From Mobula hypostoma (Eukaryota), in contig NC_086097.1 of NCBI RefSeq assembly GCF_963921235.1, positions 13,640,001 through 13,704,000 on the forward strand: a DNA stretch of 64,000 nt, given 5' to 3'. This document shows, in pieces, positions 2,441 through 48,289 of the stretch (position 1 is its first letter; each line of letters begins with the position of its first letter). A model generated the notes under the pieces. The model was not told where the DNA came from. It made no database searches and saw only the letters and a list, made by a program, of their open reading frames with translations. The position numbers and the translations under genes are program-made.

Positions 2441-3084
2441 GAACACCTACGTTCTGTCTGCCAGAGAAAGCAGGATCTCCCAGTGGCCACACATTTTCAT
2501 TCCACGTCCCATTCCCATTCTGATATGTCTATCCACGGCCTCCTCTACTGTCAAGATGAAGCCACATTCAGGTTGGAGGAACAACACCTTATATTCCGTC
2601 TGGGTAGACTCCAACCTGATGGCATGAACATTGACTTTTCTAACTTCTGTTAATGCCCCTCCTCCCCTTCGTACCCCATCCGTTATTTATTTATTATTAT
2701 ATATATTTTTTGCTCTCTCTCTTTTTCTCCCTCTGTTTCTCTCACTATACTCCTTGCCCATCCTCTGGGTTTTCCCCACCTCTCCCTTTTCTTTCTTCCT
2801 AAGCCTCCCATCCCATAATCCTCTCATATCCCTTTTGCCAATCAATTCTCCAGCTCTTAGCTTCATCCCTCCCCCTCCTGTCTTCTCCTATCATTTCCGA
2901 TCTCCCCTCCCCCTCCCACTTTCAAATCTCTTACTAGCTCTTCTTTCAGTTAGTCCTGACGAAGGGTCTCGGCCCGAAGCGTCGACTGTACCTCTTCTTA
3001 GAGATGCTGTCTGGCCTGCTGCGTTCACCAGCAATTTTTATGTATGTTGCTTGAAATTCCAGCATCTGCAGATTTCCTTGTGTT
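2441..3084 (+). mobile_element. Penelope-like element (Neptune-type) 3' fragment, inverted relative to its neighbour
   Basis: ORF 2423-2653 EHLRSVCQRKQDLPVATHF...LEEQHLIFRLGRLQPDGMNIDF is the GIY-YIG C-terminus. Hammerhead remnant at 2952-2987 has GAAA mutated to GAAG. Confidence 0.9.
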
Positions 3085-3129
3085 TTATGATTCTTTATTG
3101 GTGGGATTAGAGACCAGAGTGGACTTTAT

Positions 3130-3790
3130 AACCGCAGGATATCTCAAATTTTGTGCTAATAAAGTAGAGTTCCTGTTGTAGTAGAAAACAGGCACAGCTA
3201 AATTTGTGCGCAGTAAGATCCAAGTTCAAGTTTAATTGTCATTAAACTGTACACATGTATACGGCTAAGTGAAACAGTATTCCTCTGGGGCTATGGTGCA
3301 AAGCACAGTGCATGCAAACATACGCAGCTCACAGCACATGACACATACAGCTACATAAGCGTATACTGTCAGAAAAAAAATAACATCTGTCCAAATCCTT
3401 GAGTGTCATAGCCTGTAGATGCATGGTGCATGGGATATTGTTTCAGAGCCATTCTTCTGCAAGGGCAAGCACACAGCAGTTCCTTATATTGCACTAATGC
3501 TGCTGCATATAAACACAATCGCACAAATTTTTAATGCAATAAATGATTCAGTAATCTGTTTGAGTGCTGGTGGTGGAGGTAAGAATAATAATTGTAATAG
3601 AGAAATAATTGTTCTTCTCTCTTTAGTATCTTTGATATCAATCTGAGATGACAGATGTGATCTCAATTTAATATCTCATCTGAAATATGACATCTTCAAC
3701 AATGCATCGTTCCCTCAGCAATGGAGATCAACCTGGAATTCATCCAAAGAATGTTTCAAACCCACACTGCCCTGATGCATAAGCAAAGGT
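3130..3790 (-). mobile_element. Ancient Deu-domain SINE (SacSINE1/AmnSINE-like), split by a younger insertion at about 3223-3480
   Basis: TTTAATATCTCATCTGAAA...TCCCTCAGCA resembles the Deu domain. AAATTTGTGCGCAGTAAGATCC mirrors the + strand piece at 55415-55445. Confidence 0.45.
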
Positions 3791-6095: not shown

Positions 6096-7489
6096 GCTTC
6101 AATATATATGTTTGACCTGCAAACTTGTCTTTTGCGAGTCATATACATATTAATACAAAGACTTCTCAGACAACACCTTCAAAGCCCATAACCTTTCCCA
6201 GCTAGATTTACAAAGACAGTAAAAGCAAGGGGAGATGACCTTTCGAGGCACACACCATCCTCACTTCTTTCACCATCACTGGGCCAAAATTCCTGGAACT
6301 CCCTTCCCAGCAGCATTATGGATAGACCTACATTCAGGGATTGCAGCCGTAGAAGACATCAGCTCACCAGCATCCTCTCAAGGGCAACTAGGGATGGGCA
6401 CCCACCTGGCTTCACCTATCACCTTCTAGCTTGTCCTCCTTCCCCTCTCCAAACATGTGTTTATGGGCAATTAAACATAAAGGCTCAGTCTTTGAAGCTC
6501 ACATCCTTTCTTTGTATATATATATAAAAGAAACAGATAGCAACTCTGTGACCTCTAAATATTTAGATTGTTTTTATCTATATGGACATTTTCACATTTT
6601 CTCTCATTATATTCCATTTCATGGACATATGAGCTCTCACTAAACCTATTAATATCCCTCTACAGTCTCCTTGTGTCTTTCTCATAAAATGCCTTCCAAC
6701 CTGCCTTTAGATCATCATTGTTTCCTGGAAGTTTGTAACAGAGTTTTATGGATAGATTGCAAATCAGGCTTTGGGTTCTGGAGGCCAGGGTTGGTCTAGT
6801 TTTGCTCGCAGCTCCACAATGTTTGCTCTGCAGTCCATTGCACTACGCCTGAGGCCGTGGGCCTGCACTGGCTGTTCCGGGCTTTGTGTCTATGCATTCA
6901 CCTCATTCTGAATGCTGTTACTTGCTTTTATTGTTTGCCCAATTTGTGTTCTTTTCTCTCTCTCTGCACATTGGGTGTTTGTTGCTCTTTTTTAAAATGG
7001 GTTCTTTTGAGTTTTTTGTGGCTGCCTATAATCAGATGAATTTCAAGGTTGTATAATATATACATACTTTGATAATAACTGTACTTTGAACTTCTGAACT
7101 TTGAACTTTTTAATGCCCTTGAAAAAAATTGATAGCCCATAAGGCTGGGCTTAAGCTGGGTCTAAGTAAGTCTCAAGGTAATTCTGGAGGTAGGGAATGT
7201 TCAAGGTATTTGTAAAGGGCTACCATCAGCCAAATTCCAGCTTCCCAGTGGAAGTCTGCACTGGAGACCACGAGGCAACAGTGGCTTTCGAGACCAGACA
7301 GCCAGAAATCTCAAGCAGCTTCAGTGGTGGTTGGTCATTCTGGGGGCAATAGGACAAGGGTCCTGCTAGACAGGGACTGAAGGAGAAGAAAGTAAAAGGA
7401 AAAAAAACATGGAAATGATAAAACACTTCCCCAGGAAAGTAAGGTGTGCAGCCTATAATTTATCAAATATTTTTTCATAACATTTTGGG

Positions 7490-41903: not shown

Positions 41904-42604
41904 CAATGGCCAACAAATTTTTTGAAAATGTTGCTTCCTCAGAAATTTATTTTTTGATTATGATAGACCACTTGAAGCTGAACGCAAATATAATTTCAGA
42001 CTACTTGTATCACATAGGAATTTGGAAAACAAGAAATTAACTTCCATGAATATAATGCATTTAATTGCATAATGGTGCTGATGCGTTGCAATAGTTCAAC
42101 TGAGTAAAAATGTTGATGTTTTTCATTTGTACTCAATATCTGCGGCTTCTGGCTCAGTGTCCAACAACAATCAGCTAGCGTTGATGCATTCCAGTTGTCT
42201 TGATACCATTTCTCCATGATCGCAATGTCCTGGTGAAACCTTTCACCATGCTCGTTACAGACAGCACCAAGATTTGAGGGGAAGAAGTTTAAATATGAAT
42301 GCAGAAAATGAACCTTCAGTGACATGTTGCACTTCATGTTGTCAACCAGCTGCATACAGTTTGGTGCTCTGTAGTTGCCAAGAAAATTTTCAACAACATT
42401 CTTTAATGCCTTCCATGCGATTTTCTCTGATCCCACTAGAAATTCTTCAAATTGCCTATCATTGATGACCAGTTTTATTTGTGGACCAAAAGAAAATGCC
42501 TTCCTTAACCTTGTCATCATTTATTCTGACTTGAATTATTAATTGAAATAACATATATAGGCAATTTTTAAAAAACGGTGTGTAATAGGGAAATTTTATC
42601 ATGA
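41904..42604 (-). mobile_element. Chapaev3-like (CMC) DNA transposon remnant
   Basis: ORF 41996-42520 GPQIK...FLGN...CNMSLKVHFLHS...EHGERFHQDI..ME..YQ...LADCCWTL. Terminus CAATGGCCAACAAA at 41904. Confidence 0.8.
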
Positions 42605-44752
42605 AAAACTATACATTCAAAAACTGAAATGTCAGCAGGTCAAGCCTATTCATCCCCTTTTGATCGGCACTTGGTTGAACCACCTTTCGCAGCACTGGAC
42701 AGCAATCTTGAGGTCTAGCCAGAGATGTTTGATCAGGCTAAAATCAGGACTTTGACTGGCTACTCAAGGACATCAAATTTCTTCATTTGAAGCTAATCCA
42801 TGGTTGCTCTGGCAGTATGCTCTGGGCTGTATCCTGTTGAAAGACAAACTTCCTCCCCAGTTTAAGCTTTCATACAAACATAGAAAACATACAGCACAGT
42901 ACAGATCCTTAACATGTTCTTACCTTAGAACTAGCTAGGTTTTACCCATAGCCCTCTATTTTTCCAAGCTCCATGTACCTATCCATGAGTCTCTTAAAAG
43001 ACCCTATCGTTTCCGCCTCCACCATCGCCGCCGTTCCACACATTCACTACTCTCTGCGTAAAAAAACTTACCCGTGACTGCTCCTATGTACCTACTTCCG
43101 AGCATCTTAAAACCGTGTCCTCTTGTGTTAGCCATTTCAGCCCTGGGAAAAAGCCTCTGACTATCCACACGATCAATACCTCTCATTATCTTTTACATCT
43201 CTATCAGGTTACCTCTCATCCTCCATCACTCCAAGGAGAAAAGGCCGAGTTCACTCAACCTGTTTTCATAAGGCATTCTCCCCAATCCAGGCAACATCCT
43301 TGTAAGTCTCCTCTGCACTCTTTCTATGGTTTCCACGCCCTTCCTATAGTGAGGTGACCAGAGTTGAGCACAGTACAAGTGAGGTCTGACCAGGGTCCTA
43401 TATAGCTGCAAGATTACCTCTTGGCTCGAAACTCAATCCCACGATTGATCAAAACCAATGCACCGTATGCTTTCTTAACCATAGAGTCAACCTGCATAGC
43501 AGCTTTGAGTGTCCTATGGACTTGGACCCCGAGATCCCTCTAATCCTCTACACTGCCAAGAGTCTTACCATTAATACTATACTCTGCCATCATATTTGAC
43601 CTACCAAAATGAACCACCTCACACTGATCTGGGTTGAACTCCATCTGTCACTTCTCAGCCCAGTTTTGCATCCTATCAATTTCCCATTGTAACCTCTGAC
43701 AGCCCTCCACACTATCCACAACACCCCCAATCTTTGTGTCATCAGCAAATTTACTAACCCATCCTTCCACTTCCTCATCTAGGTCATGTCTAGCAGACTA
43801 GTGACTTTTTATCCAGGATCTTTCTGTATTTAGCAGTATTCACCTTCCCATCAATTCTGACCAGATTTCCAGTTCCTGCTGCTGAAAAGTATCCCCATAG
43901 CATGATGAGGGATGATGTTACCTGCCTGATACACAGCATTAGATTTACGCCACATGTACCGTTTAGTGTTGAGGCCAAAATATTCCACTTTAGTCTCATC
44001 TGACCAGAAGACCTTCTTCCACTTCTTTAGAGTATCTTCTAAGTGACATTTTGCAAAGTCTTTAGGGACAAAGATATGTTTTTTTTTTAGCCAGGGTTTC
44101 TTTCTTGCAACTCTTCCAGAAATACTCTTTTTGTCCAAGGCCTTGGAGAATATGGAGCCACGAACTTCATCTCTAGTTGTTGCCATTGACTTCTGCAGCT
44201 CACTCATAGTGGCTGTTGGCATCACAGTAGCCCCTCTTACAAATGCTATTCTTGTTTAGTGACTAAGTTTAGAGTGGCAGCCTGATGTAAGCGTTATGGC
44301 TGTGGTTTCATATTTTTTCCACTTTTCCATGGTGGACTACTCTGATCTCCGAGGTATGATTAATGCCTTTGAAAAGATCATGTACACTTCCCCAGATCTG
44401 TGCTTCTCTGCTATAATTTCCCTGACTTATCTTGAATGATCTTTTGTCTTCATTTTGGTTTGGTCTGTTGAAAATCCACCATTCTGTTGGATCTTACAGT
44501 GAGAGGTGTTATTTATTCTTATGAATCCATTGAAAACAGGTGATCCTCCAATTTTGTGCATCAACAAATTGGGTGAGTTAGTAAATTGTGGACAAGTTTT
44601 GGATTTTTTTTTGATTGGACATGATGCACATTGTATTGTAAATTAGCACAAAAATCCTACTTCAATATACTTAAATCTAGAAAAGAAGACAGTAAAATGT
44701 GAAAATAAATGTGAAAATAGTTGTTGGGGCTGAATCCTTTTCCAAGGCACTG
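42600..44752 (-). mobile_element. Tc1 transposon (degenerate DD34E transposase), interrupted by CR1, 3' end deleted
   Basis: ORFs GRVARKKPWL...WKKVFWSDETK and MLWGYFSAAGTGNLVRIDGKVN. FVFQQD and EWPSQSPD remnants at 42700-42870. TIR CAGTGCCTTGGAAAAGGATTCAGCCCC begins at 44752. Confidence 0.92.
42871..43789 (-). mobile_element. CR1 LINE 3' fragment nested in Tc1
   Basis: LYRTLVRPHL...ERVQRRLTRMLPGL...LGLFSLE and MRGIDRVDSQRLFP. Confidence 0.92.
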
Positions 44753-44753
44753 T

Positions 44754-44754
<1 letters not shown>

Positions 44755-44803
<49 letters not shown>
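44755..44803. repeat. (GT)n microsatellite
   Basis: About 24 GT units directly after the Tc1 TIR. Confidence 0.95.
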
Positions 44804-44805
<2 letters not shown>

Positions 44806-44971
44806 CATATGTTTGCTGGAATCTGAATGGTCAGTTTGGTTGAGTCAGTCTCTGTTAGGTCTTGAGTGCCTCTGTAGTCCATCTGATTCTTTGCAATGGT
44901 TGCTTCTAAATGAATGGCTTTCTGATCTTCTTTCAAGTGCACTTATGTGTAAACCACTCAATATGGCATGG

Positions 44972-45225
44972 GTTAGGTACAGAGGAGATGACAGGGGTAA
45001 GTTTTTTTACGTACAGAGTGGTGAGTGCGTGGAATGGGCTGCCAGCTACAGTGGTGGAGGTGGATACGATAGGGTCTTTTAAGAGATTCCTGGATAGGTA
45101 CATAGAGCTTATAAAAATAGAGGGCTATGGGTAACCCTAGGTAATCTCTATGGTAAGGACGTGTTTGGCACAGTTTTGTGGGCCGAAGGGCCTGTATTGT
45201 GCTGTAGATTTTCTATGTTTCTATG
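44972..45225 (+). mobile_element. CR1 extreme 3' fragment
   Basis: RVVSAWNGLP...FKRFLD. Tail TTCTATGTTTCTATG. Confidence 0.9.
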
Positions 45226-46419
45226 GGATCCAGTGATATCTATTTATAAAGTTTGTTTAATTGCTCAGGAAAGGTTTGATCTTGTATTTATGAAGAGAAA
45301 AATGCTTCATGTGGAGGATCGTAAATCTTTGGAATTCCCTACCCAGAGAGCAGTAGGAGGAGTCAGTCACTGAGTACACTCAAGGTGGAGGCAGATGGAT
45401 TTTGCAGCTCTGAAAGGATCACTTCCAGGTGGAATGGACAGGAAAATAGATTTGACTTACAGTCTTAGAAAGGCAGGCGGTACAGAACCGAACTGCTTGG
45501 CACACCAATTCATGCTGGCCATCAAATAGCCATCTACTTACCAGCACTCAACCTGCAGCATTATATAGCAATAGGGTGGCTCAGTAGTGTAGAGGGCAGC
45601 ACAACTGAGTAGCGGGCAACATAGTAGAGTAGCAGTTCGCACAATCATTTTACGGCAACAGCGATCACCAATCAGGGTTTGAATCCCAGCGCTGTTTGTG
45701 AGGAGTTTGTATGTTCTCACCATGAATGTGTGAGTTTTCTCTGGGTGCTTCAGCTTCTTCTCACATTCCAAAGATATATAGTGTAGTTAGTGTTAGTGAG
45801 GTGCAGACATGCTGTGTTGGAAACCAGAAACATGGCAGCACTTGCAGGCTGCTCCCTGCACAATTGTTGGCTCAAAATGACACATTTCACTGCATGTCTT
45901 AATGTACTTACTAATCGTAAACCTCAAAAGACAAAATCCAGGTCTAGTTTATTGTCATATCTCAAGTACATGTTTGCACAGAAAATCTTACAAACGGTAA
46001 TTGTAGCAGCATCACAAGCACATATTTATCGTCTATTTATTCATTATCATTATTTTTCTCTATCTGCACAGTTTACTGTCTTCTGCACTCTGTACTCTTG
46101 AACACTGTAGTTGGGTGGTCTTTCATTTATTCTGTTTTAGTTATTATTCTATAAATTTATTTAGTATGCCCACAAGGAAATCAATCTCAGGGTGGCATAT
46201 GGTGACATATACAGTATGTATATTGATAATTAAGTTTACTTTGAACTTTGAACGTAGCAGCATTCACAAGCAAAACATAAATTATACATAATTATACAAG
46301 AAAGAACACAGTTAAAGACGAAAAAAGAAAACAAAACTTTGGCATGGGCATTATCTTTCTGAGTGCTTGAGATCTAGAGAGCCTACTCCTAGTTTCAATT
46401 TGTCTTATGTTTTAAAAAA

Positions 46420-46741
46420 CAGTGGAGGTTGGTTGTAGGGGATTCGTAGCACGTTCCTTAGTTAGAACCTTCAGCATTTTGGGCATCGAGGGAGAGGGGA
46501 AGAGGAGAGCCATCCGCAGTACCACCGATGCGGCAGAGAGGGCCTCAAGATGGCTGTGGCTCAAAAGAGGGGAGCCATGGAGTCATAAGTAGCTAGCCAT
46601 CTGGACACAAGCTGGGGTCTGATCAGCCCCGGCTGGGTCACCTGGAGGAGGTTGTATGATGTTGAAAGACCCGAAACACCCGATGATTCCAGGAGCATCA
46701 CTGAAGATGTGTCCAGAAGCATCAATAGATGTATGTACACA
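46420..46741 (+). mobile_element. Hero-clade (R2 group, restriction-like endonuclease) non-LTR retrotransposon 3' fragment
   Basis: Uninterrupted frame 46422-46592, absent from the ORF track: VEVGCRGFVARSL...RAIRSTTDAAERASRWLWLKRGEPWSHK*. VEVGxRGF and AERASRWLWLKR are Hero-type C-terminal motifs. Structured 3' UTR follows. Confidence 0.82.
46601..46716 (+). ncRNA. Candidate strand-rearranged hammerhead-like RNA in Hero 3' UTR
   Basis: GUA triplet 46654-46656, GAAA 46673-46676, CUGAAGA 46701-46707 and six complementary segment pairs (see findings). Confidence 0.5.
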
Positions 46742-48289
46742 GCCATTTTATTTCTGGATCAATAAAAATGTCCAGACCCCAAAATAGGAGCCCAGCATTC
46801 CAGGGGCACAAACACTACTGTAAGGTAAAGCAGCAATTCATTTCTTCAAATCTAGTAGGAATAAGAACGAGATGCACATTTACTGCAGAATAGTGAGGTT
46901 AACATTAGGGAGATTCAGAATGTCACCAATGTTCAAATAAAACTATACAAAATGGACTGTACAAAGTATCCTGATTGGTTGTGGATGTGAAAATAAACTT
47001 GGCTTGATTTGATGTGACTTGCATCCATGGATTATCAGAAACAGAATCAGAATCAGAATAAATTTTAATATTGTAAGGAGATGTTCAAGCCTGTTAGAGA
47101 GTATTGGGCTCCAAAGTTTTTAGAGCACTGAATTGGTTAATTGTTTTTTAATAAAAGTTATTAATTATCTATAGTTTGTAATGTGGTCCCCTGGTGCTTT
47201 CTGTTTAAACTTGTTAAGTTTATTTTGATAGGCTTGGAGGTTCTTTGTTATTTAAGTCAACACCAATAGGTTGTGCAAAAAGAGAGCAAAAATAGAAAAA
47301 AAAAGTGACGTATCTTCTGCAGTTGCATTAAAAAAAAGGATGTGAGAAGTAAAATGTATGATGGTGGGGGAGGAAGATCAGTCTGGGTGTTGTAATGCAA
47401 AAGTGGTCCCTTCAAAATGCTGAGGAAGTGGGAGATAAGTTGTTGTGTTATAGAATAAGATTGTTTTGTAAAGGCAATCTAATGGTGTCATTGTTACCAT
47501 GACTGATATAAATTTTTCATTTAAAAGTTGGCAAATTACTTGACGGTAAGTTCCCCAGTTGCGGCAGTATAATTTGTTCTCAGTCCTCTGGATCCACAGT
47601 CTAGACAACTAGAGAGCAATCCAGCAATTAACCACGACAACACCCTACCCCTGAGGCTACTACAATCTGTACCAGGGCAGGAAGATGAGGCGTCAGCTTC
47701 TTCTCAGCATTGTTAATACACTTTAGGTTTCAGATTTCATGTGAGCCAATCCAGTCAAAATCTCATCACTCTGAACATGTGAGGTCTGATCCAAAGTAAT
47801 TCACATTGTTGGAGTTCATCTTATTGAGGGCCAAGGCTTTCTAATAGCTGTAATGGAGTATCAGTTAGATTCAGGAAAAGAGCTTGAAATATCAAACTTC
47901 CTTTTGACATTTTAAAGCATTAGAGCAATTTAAAACCACAAATGGTGTTACTTGTGGCAGGTAGGATACTTTGCTGCCTTACAGTAACTGGACCATTATA
48001 CCATGTAGTACACAGTGAATCTCTTTCCATGATGCATTTGTGCTTAATCTGACCTCCCCACTCAAACCACAAAGTAACTCCTTGGCTAAGGAGAACATTC
48101 TCTCGCTGGTGCCCATGGTCATTTTGTAAACCTCAGCCTGCTCTTCTCCAAGGAGAACAAACCCATCTTCACCTGAACATAGCTGAAATGCTACATCCCA
48201 GGAATTCTTAGTCAATATCCTCTGAACCCTCTCCAGCACAATCACCTCTCTCCAAGGATATAGTGAACAGAACTACACTCAGTATTCCA

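What the first reader, a model, noticed from the sequence alone, without database searches (positions are those of the whole stretch)
46601..46716. Hammerhead core with strands in a non-canonical (pseudoknotted) order in the 3' UTR of a Hero retrotransposon
Seen: just after the Hero stop codon, every hammerhead element is present with its partner helix. Stem III is GGUUGU 46650-55 with ACACCC 46676-81 (5/6). The cleavage triplet is GUA 46654-56. Stem I is UGAUG 46657-61 with CAUCA 46696-700. CUGAAGA 46701-07 directly follows stem I', and GAAA 46673-76 leads into stem III. Stem II is GACCC 46668-72 with GUGUC 46709-13 (4/5, one extra U after A9). Additional helices: CUGGACACA 46601-09/UGUGUCCAG 46708-16 (9 bp), GGGUC 46635-39/GACCC, CCUGGA 46641-46/UCCAGG 46688-93, and a hairpin at 46611-33 capped by the self-complementary CUGAUCAG. 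Established: hammerhead types I-III are circular permutations of the order NUH-strand, CUGANGA-strand, GAAA-strand, and R2-group elements are known for 5' HDV-like ribozymes. Here the order is NUH, GAAA, CUGANGA, which is none of types I-III. Inference: this is a pseudoknotted or dimer-assembled hammerhead, possibly switchable because the upstream strands sequester both halves of stem II, that processes Hero RNA ends. I do not know of a description of this arrangement, but I cannot search the literature.
Basis: partly seen in the sequence, partly recalled or inferred. Interest (0 to 1): 0.82.

Follow-up and report, generated by a model that had tools for sequence, protein, structure and literature searches.

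The report
Permuted hammerhead ribozyme in Hero retrotransposons
The tail of this fish-type "Hero" jumping gene carries a deeply conserved RNA fold with every hallmark of a self-cutting hammerhead ribozyme, wired in a rearranged, knotted order not seen before in this exact form, which suggests that these elements cut and perhaps rejoin their own RNA.

Summary
The motifs are at the stated coordinates and are not chance. Window 46420-46743 is a dead, 5'-truncated copy of a young RT + restriction-like-endonuclease non-LTR element (Hero-like; about 3000 copies in the genome). Its 3' domain (46600-46717) recurs in 4 sister families of this genome and in 68 of 80 related metagenome loci. Across 82 aligned copies the hammerhead core is kept: CUGANGA in 76 of 82 (N7 takes all four bases), GAA in 69 of 82, A15.1-U16.1 in 74 of 82, and position 17 is never G. 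All helices covary (38 of 41 pairs). That order was published in 2023 as the "type-SGC" hammerhead. His stem II is wrong. The true partner of GACCC is GGGUC 46635-39, so the CUGANGA block is split from stem II by two helices, P1 and P2. That split was not found in the papers I searched. The fold also shows a K-turn signature and a palindromic P2 loop that points to dimers. Nearly every full-length copy follows a partial tail, as in Penelope-like elements. Self-cleavage after A46656 is inferred, not shown.

The parts
46420..46592 (+). Start of the 5'-truncated element copy and the last 57 codons of its ORF (C-terminal restriction-like endonuclease region). The stop codon TAG is at 46590-92.
   Evidence: Longer homologues carry RVT_1 and zf-RVT.
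46600..46609 (+). P1, 5' strand. It pairs with 46708-46717 and closes the whole domain.
   Evidence: 10 of 10 pairs show compensatory changes and 95.6% of cells are paired. RNAalifold predicts it independently, and it is in the single-sequence MFE fold.
46610..46634 (+). P2 hairpin (46610-18 with 46626-34), loop CUGAUCA 46619-25. UGAUCA 46620-25 is a 6-nt palindrome and a putative kissing-loop dimerisation site.
   Evidence: 8 of 8 pairs are compensatory. The extra pair 46610/46634 covaries (AU 39, GC 12, CG 10). 69 of 82 copies have an apical 6-nt palindrome, in 5 different forms.
46635..46639 (+). True stem II, 10.x strand (GGGUC; G10.1 = 46635). It pairs with 46668-72.
   Evidence: 5 of 5 pairs form in 66 of 81 copies, with 21 different 11.x pentamers. 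4 of 5 pairs are compensatory on an alignment not fitted to this helix.
46641..46646 (+). P3, 5' strand. It pairs with 46688-93.
   Evidence: 5 of 6 pairs are compensatory and 94.0% of cells are paired.
46647..46649 (+). K-turn signature, non-bulged strand (N-G-A directly 5' of stem III).
   Evidence: GA is present in 70 of 82 copies and the junction is 3 nt long in 78 of 82. The K-turn rule itself is recalled from memory, not tested.
46650..46655 (+). Stem III, 16.x strand (GGUUGU; U16.1 = 46655).
   Evidence: 5 of 6 pairs are compensatory. The pair A15.1-U16.1 never covaries (UA in 73).
46656..46656 (+). Position 17 (A). The predicted scissile bond lies between 46656 and 46657.
   Evidence: Position 17 is A in 41, C in 22, U in 19 and G in 0 of 82 copies. 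Cleavage itself was not tested.
46657..46663 (+). Stem I, 1.x strand (UGAUGUU). It pairs with 46694-46700 as a pseudoknot.
   Evidence: 66 of 76 copies have at least 4 consecutive pairs from the core, with 25 different pentamers. A copy's own partner gives 4.71 of 5 pairs, against 2.41 for partners from other copies. 6 of 6 pairs are compensatory.
46664..46667 (+). 4-nt linker GAAA that joins the distal end of stem I to the distal end of stem II.
   Evidence: Type-SGC hammerheads have a comparable short linker (PMC10085705, section 13).
46668..46672 (+). Stem II, 11.x strand (GACCC; C11.1 = 46672).
   Evidence: C11.1 is present in 69 of 82 copies.
46673..46675 (+). G12 A13 A14 of the hammerhead core.
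   Evidence: GAA in 69 of 82 copies. 12 of the other 13 read AAA, and all 12 have C before it (CAAA from CGAAA, as CpG decay would give).
46676..46681 (+). Stem III, 15.x strand (ACACCC; A15.1 = 46676).
46682..46687 (+). K-turn signature, bulged strand (3 nt, then G-A, then 1 nt).
   Evidence: GA at junction positions 4-5 in 76 of 82 copies. The junction is 6 nt long in 80 of 82.
46688..46693 (+). P3, 3' strand.
46694..46700 (+). Stem I, 2.x strand (AGCAUCA). The G at 46695 is private to this copy; the other copies of its family read A.
   Evidence: In one search table 3, every contig read A at 46695.
46701..46707 (+). C3-A9 of the hammerhead core (CUGAAGA).
   Evidence: CUGANGA is exact in 76 of 82 copies. 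N7 is U in 46, A in 15, C in 11 and G in 4.
46708..46717 (+). P1, 3' strand. It follows A9 with no linker.
46718..46744 (+). Family-specific 3' terminal segment. The element ends ...GUACACAG(C) with no poly(A).
   Evidence: Flank comparison of 30 copies and the exact tail-to-head junctions.

Best explanation
Window 46600-46717 is a fossil copy of an RNA domain shared by Hero-type (RT + restriction-like endonuclease) non-LTR retrotransposons. The domain is a hammerhead ribozyme in a non-circularly permuted, doubly pseudoknotted topology.

The stem III hairpin (46650-55 with 46676-81) carries three things in its 20-nt loop: the cleavage site (A46656 | U46657), the 1.x strand of stem I, and the 11.x strand of stem II followed by G12-A14. 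Stem I is completed by the strand just 5' of CUGAAGA (46694-707). Stem II is completed by GGGUC (46635-39), which lies upstream.

A9 and G10.1 are therefore not neighbours in the chain. Helices P1 and P2 branch off between them, and the linkers are zero length, so the four helices should form a perfect four-way junction. Stem III continues through a K-turn-like kink into P3, which ties together the far ends of stems I and II. The palindromic P2 loop probably makes kissing dimers.

Shown: the fold, the core conservation, the covariation, and the genomic partial tandems.

Inferred: (a) the RNA cuts itself after position 17. (b) In transcripts that run through a 'partial tail + full-length element' unit, cuts at the two successive ribozymes release a unit-length RNA with 5'-OH and 2',3'-cyclic phosphate ends. 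Those ends are the two halves of one ribozyme. This would give 5' processing analogous to the HDV-like ribozyme of R2, and might allow re-ligation to a circle. (c) The same domain is likely also what the reverse transcriptase recognises.
For: Occurrence. In this genome a DNA search gave 1483 candidates, of which 40 were scored, all at 97-100% identity. A 30-mer spanning the site matches 3078 places. Four sister families share the domain at 77-89% identity. Of 80 metagenome loci that encode relatives (43-99% amino-acid identity), 53 match a covariance model built only from the nested helices, always just 3' of the ORF. 9 more are found by a strict descriptor and 6 more by a relaxed one.

Core, in 82 aligned copies. 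CUGANGA in 76 of 82, with N7 = U 46, A 15, C 11, G 4. G12A13A14 in 69 of 82. U16.1/A15.1 in 74 of 82. C11.1 in 69 of 82. Position 17 = A 41, C 22, U 19, G 0.

Helices. 93.3% of cells are paired (shuffled 68.5%, slid by 1-3 columns at most 45.5%). 38 of 41 pairs are compensatory. That includes stems I (6 of 6) and II (4 of 5), which the alignment was not fitted to. On a plain MAFFT alignment of 48 copies, 25 of 42 pairs are compensatory. RNAalifold independently recovers P1, P2, P3 and III.

Other features. K-turn signature and palindromic loop.

Precedent. Hammerheads in the order S-G-C cleave in vitro (PMC10085705, sections 13, 15, 18).

Genomic context. There are 145 exact tail-to-head junctions against 139 heads. 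12 of 12 head loci have an upstream partial tail, and 9 of those 12 hold a complete upstream ribozyme domain. 11 of 39 metagenome loci run from the tail into a new Hero N-terminus. No Rfam ribozyme (E <= 1) was found on a full-length copy.
Against: No cleavage was observed. Only assembled contigs were on offer, and these cannot show RNA ends. Contigs from RNA libraries bridge the site (X18 46420-46724, X9 46527-46692). They may be DNA or uncut RNA.

There is no excess of genomic copies that begin at 46657: 3078 matches span the site and 2993 lie downstream of it. In 9 of 12 upstream partial units the sequence runs straight through the site.

A break of the chain between A9 and G10.1 has no tested precedent. 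Eckert et al. assumed that the blocks cannot be interrupted.

No Rfam hammerhead model matches at E <= 10. That is expected for a permuted form.

The window's own family has a U-C mismatch in stem III, and this copy is a dead fragment.

A cut 87 nt from the 3' end would separate the ORF from the tail unless the pieces stay paired or are re-joined.

Of the 80 metagenome loci, 12 show no complete motif. 9 of them have at most 122 nt after the protein match (too short), and 3 (L098 with 138 nt, L123, L136) show none.

Whether P3 and the K-turn can close the structure in three dimensions was not modelled.
Confidence: 0.7

Rival explanations
1. The domain is a conserved structural 3' UTR element that the element's reverse transcriptase recognises for target-primed reverse transcription, as for the pseudoknotted R2 3' UTR. 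It descends from or mimics a hammerhead but no longer cleaves.
For: It sits at the 3' end, where R2-type proteins bind their RNA (abstract of PMC12222951, from the listing). The genome shows no sign of cleaved templates. The A9/G10.1 chain break is untested. RNA-library contigs span the site.
Against: Every base that hammerhead catalysis needs is kept, while the helices change sequence completely. Position 17 varies among A, C and U but is never G in 82 copies, and N7 is free. That pattern is specific to the cleavage chemistry, not to a binding scaffold. The two roles also do not exclude each other.
Confidence: 0.22
2. One reading: a contiguous type-SGC hammerhead whose stem II is GACCC 46668-72 with GUGUC 46709-13, switched off by the upstream strands.
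For: In the window copy 4 of 5 pairs form, with one spare U after A9. A descriptor of this kind finds the site.
Against: 73% of cells are paired, 0 of 5 pairs are compensatory, and one pair is unpaired in 46 of 48 sequences. 5 of 5 pairs form in 0 of 76 copies, while the upstream partner gives 5 of 5 in 66 of 81. GUGUC belongs to P1, where 10 of 10 pairs covary.
Confidence: 0.03
3. A chance constellation, or conservation caused by overlapping coding sequence. In sister families the ORF runs on to window 46620-22 or to 46657-59.
For: Such a constellation arises about once in 150-300 shuffled windows. Part of the domain is coding in three sister families.
Against: Compensatory base-pair changes occur in six helices, most of them beyond any stop codon. 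The motif recurs in 68 of 80 distant loci.
Confidence: 0.01

Closest known systems
Type-SGC hammerhead ribozymes (HRIMA-1 motif and variants), Eckert, Friedrich, Weinberg and Weinberg 2023, NAR (PMC10085705)
   Same: The order is cleavage-site block, GAAA block, CUGAnGA. A short linker runs from stem I straight into stem II. An extra helix ties together the other ends of stems I and II (here P3). That helix adjoins the far end of stem III. The core is pseudoknotted, with all hammerhead core bases kept.
   Different: In Hero the CUGAnGA block is split. The 10.x strand of stem II, together with one strand of the tying helix, lies 5' of the site block, and P1 and P2 branch off between A9 and G10.1. 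Formally this is a circular permutation of type SGC opened inside block C, which the authors assumed could not be interrupted. Hero also has a K-turn signature and a palindromic loop. Its host is an animal retrotransposon, not metatranscriptome RNAs found beside hairpin ribozymes. Cleavage is untested here.
Classical hammerheads of types I-III (Rfam hammerhead families)
   Same: The same core bases, the A15.1-U16.1 and G10.1-C11.1 pairs, H17, and three helices around the core.
   Different: The strand order is not a circular permutation of theirs, there is no simple three-way junction, and no Rfam model matches.
Hammerheads in the pseudo-LTRs of Penelope-like elements and in retrozymes (passages of PMC8557442 read; abstracts of PMC7229834 and PMC7761336 seen in the listing)
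   Same: A retroelement whose full-length copies are preceded by a 5'-truncated copy (partial tandem), with a hammerhead in the repeated part. Dimer-dependent hammerheads and unit-length or circular RNA intermediates have been proposed there.
   Different: Hero has a restriction-like endonuclease and an R2-group reverse transcriptase, not a GIY-YIG Penelope-type protein. The hammerhead there is a minimal type I, while here it is a large permuted form. PMC8557442 states that such tandem structures are not observed in TPRT of non-LTR elements.
HDV-like self-cleaving ribozyme at the 5' end of R2, and the pseudoknotted R2 3' UTR bound by the R2 protein (abstracts of PMC3774820 and PMC12222951)
   Same: The same superfamily of elements. 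In both, a ribozyme would free the element RNA from a co-transcript, and a structured 3' UTR would be the template-recognition signal.
   Different: A different ribozyme class and position. In Hero one 3' domain may serve both roles, acting at the 5' side only through the upstream partial copy.

Membership tests
Hammerhead ribozyme | Core C3-U4-G5-A6-N7-G8-A9 | tested here: met
   CUGANGA is exact in 76 of 82 copies and N7 takes all four bases. In the window it is 46701-07.
Hammerhead ribozyme | G12-A13-A14 followed by the A15.1-U16.1 pair | tested here: met
   GAA in 69 of 82 and U/A in 74 of 82. The pair never shows a change on both sides.
Hammerhead ribozyme | Position 17 is any base but G | tested here: met
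   A 41, C 22, U 19, G 0 of 82.
Hammerhead ribozyme | Three helices I, II and III meet at the core, supported by covariation, with G10.1-C11.1 | tested here: met
   Compensatory pairs: I 6 of 6, II 4 of 5, III 5 of 6. The 10.1-11.1 pair is GC in 61 and GU in 10.
Hammerhead ribozyme | A9 is continuous with the 10.x strand of stem II | tested here: not met
   A9 runs into P1, and the 10.x strand lies 72 nt upstream.
Hammerhead ribozyme | Site-specific self-cleavage 3' of position 17 | not testable with these tools
   Only contigs of sequencing runs were available.
Hammerhead ribozyme | Match to a curated Rfam hammerhead model | tested here: not met
   No hammerhead hit at E <= 10. Covariance models cannot represent this strand order.
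Type-SGC permuted hammerhead (Eckert et al. 2023) | 5'-to-3' order of block S, block G, CUGAnGA, with a short linker from stem I to stem II | tested here: met
   46650-63, then the 4-nt linker, then 46668-81, then 46694-707.
Type-SGC permuted hammerhead (Eckert et al. 2023) | Block C uninterrupted (stem I strand, CUGAnGA and stem II strand contiguous) | tested here: not met
   The contiguous candidate helix gives 5 of 5 pairs in 0 of 76 copies, while the upstream strand gives 5 of 5 in 66 of 81.
K-turn | A 3-nt bulge followed by tandem G-A / A-G pairs next to a regular helix | tested here: inconclusive
   The sequence signature is present: GA 5' of stem III in 70 of 82, and stem III + 3 nt + GA in 76 of 82, with fixed junction lengths. 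The rule is recalled from memory and the kink cannot be tested here.
Hero clade of restriction-like-endonuclease non-LTR retrotransposons | A single ORF with RT, a zinc-binding motif and a C-terminal restriction-like endonuclease, and placement in the HERO clade by RT phylogeny | tested here: inconclusive
RVT_1 and zf-RVT are found on an intact 1166-aa copy. A C-terminal RPD...E.T motif was seen by eye. Relatives include a Takifugu reverse transcriptase, Q76IN2.
Penelope-like elements | Penelope-type RT with GIY-YIG endonuclease | tested here: not met
   The domain content is RVT_1 + zf-RVT + a restriction-like C-terminus. Only the partial-tandem habit is shared.

The most novel reading that the evidence does not exclude
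The hammerhead core tolerates a four-way junction at the A9/G10.1 step. That would be a further topological class beyond the six block orders considered in 2023. Hero elements, which are bona fide restriction-like-endonuclease LINEs, would use this ribozyme as Penelope-like elements and retrozymes are thought to use theirs. Two successive cuts in a greater-than-unit-length transcript would release a unit-length RNA whose ends are the two halves of one ribozyme. That RNA would be re-ligated to a circle (or held as a kissing dimer) and copied by rolling or template-continuing reverse transcription. This would explain why essentially every full-length copy is preceded by a partial tail with an exact junction.
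Probability: 0.3. Interest if true: 0.92.

Novelty: new variant of a known kind. Interest (0 to 1): 0.84.

Why it matters
Hammerheads are known in Penelope-like elements, retrozymes, satellites and viroid-like RNAs. In the R2 group of LINEs only HDV-like ribozymes are known. A hammerhead conserved across the Hero clade would add a second ribozyme class to LINE biology.

It would be a natural example of a non-circular permutation in an animal genome, present in thousands of copies. It would also show that the CUGANGA block can be separated from stem II by a helical junction, which widens the search space for hidden ribozymes.

Together with the partial-tandem copies, it makes a specific idea testable: that some LINEs pass through unit-length, possibly circular or dimeric, RNA intermediates.

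Tried and rejected
- **Rfam.** Scans of 46300-47000 at E <= 10 and of a full-length copy at E <= 1 gave no ribozyme family.
- **Pfam.** The 58-aa and 188-aa ORF ends gave nothing.
- **Earlier findings of this scan.** Nothing by sequence or by words.
- **Sequencing runs.** 22 runs hold parts of the stretch, but all are kept as contigs. Laying 4 of them showed no pile-up of ends and no joints, and gives no verdict on cleavage or expression.
- **5'-truncation hotspot at 46657.** Tested and not found (3078 against 2993).
- **Upstream partial units starting at the cleavage site.** Tested and not found (1 of 12 starts within 5 nt).
Rejected.
- **Contig behind L101.** It ends exactly at position 17, but other cut contigs end elsewhere, so it is no evidence.
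- **My first reading of a fixed-length SINE-like unit.** This was wrong. The query copy used was itself truncated.
- **Literature.** Six searches were answered. Five of them were aimed at a prior description, and none turned up a paper that joins hammerheads with Hero elements. The one held supplement of PMC10085705 contains no fish, eukaryote or retrotransposon context and none of four Hero-type GAAA-block strings. Subscription journals and bioRxiv supplements were not searchable.

Full report
**What is at the site.**
The stretch is not a whole element. Homology to other copies starts at 46420 and ends at ...GTACACAG(C), about 46743, with no poly(A). It is therefore a 5'-truncated copy holding the last 57 codons of an ORF (stop TAG 46590-92) and a 151-nt 3' UTR.

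Longer copies end in a domain with an RPD...E.T motif. An intact 1166-aa copy has RVT_1 and zf-RVT. Relatives are widespread in fishes and amphioxus, and include a Takifugu reverse transcriptase. HERO is one of five clades of restriction-like-endonuclease LINEs (PMC4640811, passages read). I built no RT tree, so I call the element Hero-like.

The family is young and abundant. 40 of 40 scored DNA matches are 97-100% identical. A 30-mer across the site occurs 3078 times in the 3.48-Gb genome.

**Chance.**
It hit 300 shuffled windows once. A version with stem II upstream hit them twice. That is rare, but not decisive for a scan of many windows.

**Relatives settle it.**
A divergent Hero C-terminus used as a query found 12,339 candidates in this genome. 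The 30 loci fetched fall into four families. Their tails align with the window's at 77-89% identity.

In three of these families the ORF runs into the domain. The stop codon falls at the equivalent of 46620-22 or of 46657-59.

A scan of metagenome contigs with five C-terminal domains gave 376 relatives, of which 80 loci were kept. I built a covariance model from the nested helices only. It matched 53 of these 80 loci, always just 3' of the ORF. A strict descriptor found the motif in 9 further loci, and a relaxed one in 6 more.

Of the remaining 12 loci, 9 have at most 122 nt after the protein match. Three of those nine break off inside the motif. The other three loci (L098, L123, L136) show none.

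**The core.**
82 copies were aligned to the nested model: the window, 30 own-genome loci and 51 metagenome loci.
- CUGANGA is exact in 76. N7 is U in 46, A in 15, C in 11 and G in 4.
- G12A13A14 is GAA in 69. In the 12 copies that read AAA, a C precedes it (CAAA from CGAAA), as CpG decay would give.
- U16.1/A15.1 is present in 74, and C11.1 in 69.
- Position 17 is A in 41, C in 22, U in 19, and never G.

**The helices.**
On that alignment 93.3% of cells pair. Shuffled partners give 68.5%, and partners slid by 1-3 columns give at most 45.5%. 38 of 41 pairs show compensatory changes.

| Helix | Compensatory pairs |
|---|---|
| P1 | 10 of 10 |
| P2 | 8 of 8 |
| II | 4 of 5 |
| P3 | 5 of 6 |
| III | 5 of 6 |
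| I | 6 of 6 |

Stems I and II were not in the model, so the alignment was not fitted to them.

I also anchored each sequence on its own core. Stem I then has at least 4 consecutive pairs in 66 of 76 copies, with 25 different pentamers. A copy's own partner gives 4.71 of 5 pairs, against 2.41 for partners from other copies. Stem II is 5 of 5 in 66 of 81 copies.

A plain MAFFT alignment of 48 copies gives the same picture, with 25 of 42 pairs compensatory. RNAalifold recovers P1, P2, P3 and III. It also adds a covarying pair, 46610/46634.

His stem II (46668-72 with 46709-13) has 0 of 5 compensatory pairs, and one pair is unpaired in 46 of 48 sequences. It is never 5 of 5 in 76 copies.

GUGUC belongs to P1. 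The partner of GACCC is GGGUC 46635-39. So the chain runs as follows:

P1 - P2 - II(10.x) - P3 - [N-GA] - III(16.x) - N17 - I(1.x) - GAAA - II(11.x) - GAA - III(15.x) - [NNN-GA-N] - P3' - I(2.x) - CUGANGA - P1'

A9 passes directly into P1. P1 passes directly into P2, and P2 directly into G10.1. This predicts a perfect four-way junction in which the tandem G-A helix can still stack on stem II.

The junction between stem III and P3 has the sequence signature of a K-turn. GA is present in 70 of 82 copies on one strand and in 76 of 82 on the other, and the junction lengths are fixed. The K-turn rule is recalled from memory.

The P2 loop holds a 6-nt palindrome in 69 of 82 copies: UGAUCA 58, UGGCCA 8, and UGUACA, UCAUGA and GACGUC once each. 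Each change from one palindrome to another needs paired substitutions. This is what a kissing-loop homodimer predicts.

**Comparison with what is known.**
Eckert et al. 2023 (PMC10085705) divide the hammerhead into three blocks: S (the cleavage site), G (GAAA) and C (CUGAnGA). They report natural, cleaving 'type-SGC' ribozymes from metatranscriptomes, with a short linker between stems I and II and a helix that ties their other ends. They assume that blocks cannot be interrupted (sections 13, 15 and 18 read).

The Hero form has the same circular order as type SGC, but it is opened inside block C, with P1 and P2 inserted there. I found no description of this, or of any hammerhead in Hero elements, in five full-text searches or in the one held supplement.

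**Genomic habit.**
The tail-to-head junction ...GTACACAGC|TTACACCCTGAG occurs 145 times, and the head alone 139 times. All 12 head loci fetched have an upstream partial unit. 11 are visible by BLAST, and the twelfth (L157) appears among the junction matches.

These upstream units start at unit coordinates 2732 to 3550 of 3614. Nine of them contain a complete upstream ribozyme domain.

Of 39 metagenome loci with at least 500 nt after the domain, 11 run into a Hero N-terminal coding region 90-404 nt further on.

This is the 'pseudo-LTR' partial tandem that is typical of Penelope-like elements, whose hammerheads lie in the repeated part. It is said not to occur in non-LTR TPRT (PMC8557442, passages read).

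**How it most likely works.**
Shown: the conserved fold, the core and the tandem habit.

Inferred: the RNA cleaves after position 17. In a transcript that crosses a partial tail and the following full-length unit, the two cuts release a unit-length RNA with a defined 5' end. This is the task that the HDV-like ribozyme performs for R2. No Rfam ribozyme was found on a full-length Hero copy. The ends of that RNA are the two halves of one hammerhead, so re-ligation to a circle is conceivable.

The exact, uniform junctions fit a continuous circular or multimeric template better than end-to-end template jumps. The upstream units that run through the cleavage site fit it too. Both models remain open.

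**Against.**
- No cleavage product was seen. Only contigs were on offer, and some RNA-library contigs span the site.
- There is no 5'-truncation hotspot at 46657.
- The chain break at A9/G10.1 is untested.
- The window's own family carries a U-C mismatch in stem III.

**Verdict.**
The object is a new variant of a known kind: a permuted hammerhead with a split CUGANGA block, conserved in an animal LINE clade. I put self-cleavage at about 0.7.

Noticed in passing
G000 loci L143-L162; junction ...GTACACAGC|TTACACCCTGAG: Nearly every 5'-complete copy of this family is preceded on the same strand by a 5'-truncated tail of another unit, with an exact junction (145 junction matches against 139 head matches; 12 of 12 loci). 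This is a Penelope-like 'pseudo-LTR' habit in an RLE LINE.
   Followed up: partly
L074, L104, L105, L106, L108, L109, L111, L118, L119, L125, L131: In 11 of 39 metagenome loci with enough sequence, the ribozyme domain is followed 90-404 nt later by a Hero N-terminal coding region on the same strand. The tail-to-head arrangement is therefore not peculiar to this genome.
   Followed up: partly
L156; G000:C1:165374145 and 165375098: One copy joins head positions 1-619 directly to the last ~325 nt of the unit. Two tails lie 953 nt apart elsewhere. This may be an internally deleted, non-autonomous derivative of about 0.95 kb.
   Followed up: no
window 46620-22 and 46657-59 (equivalents in L033-L054): In sister families the ORF extends into the RNA domain. 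Its stop codon is the UGA inside the palindromic P2 loop, or the UGA formed by positions 1.1-1.3 directly after the predicted cleavage site.
   Followed up: partly
proteins P0003-P0011: The C-terminal 139 residues are 87-91% identical to predicted proteins of distantly related teleosts (eel, flatfish, pipefish, herring, catfish, hake). This suggests horizontal spread or unusually strong constraint.
   Followed up: no
L101:1220-1279: The metagenome contig ends exactly at position 17 of its ribozyme (…GGGAGUC). This is a single case, and other cut contigs end at other places.
   Followed up: partly
L032:5777-5860 and 6500-6595: About 70 nt of near-identical sequence (reading ...NKH.FDII.KVRTTAKGEKFKK in one frame) flanks both sides of one truncated insertion. 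It is either a very long target duplication or an insertion into a tandem repeat.
   Followed up: no
L001-L030, first bases after ...CACAG: The 3' flanks often begin with C, CT, CTT or CTTA, which are the first bases of the element's head. That would be expected if reverse transcription sometimes starts a few bases into a head that follows the tail in the template. The sample is biased by how it was picked.
   Followed up: no
window 42000-45200: Upstream lie fragments of other repeats: a Tc1/mariner-like transposase frame (43851-44255, minus strand), a (CA)n run near 44730-44790, and an RT-like frame (43226-43432, minus strand). They were named by eye from translations and not tested.
   Followed up: no
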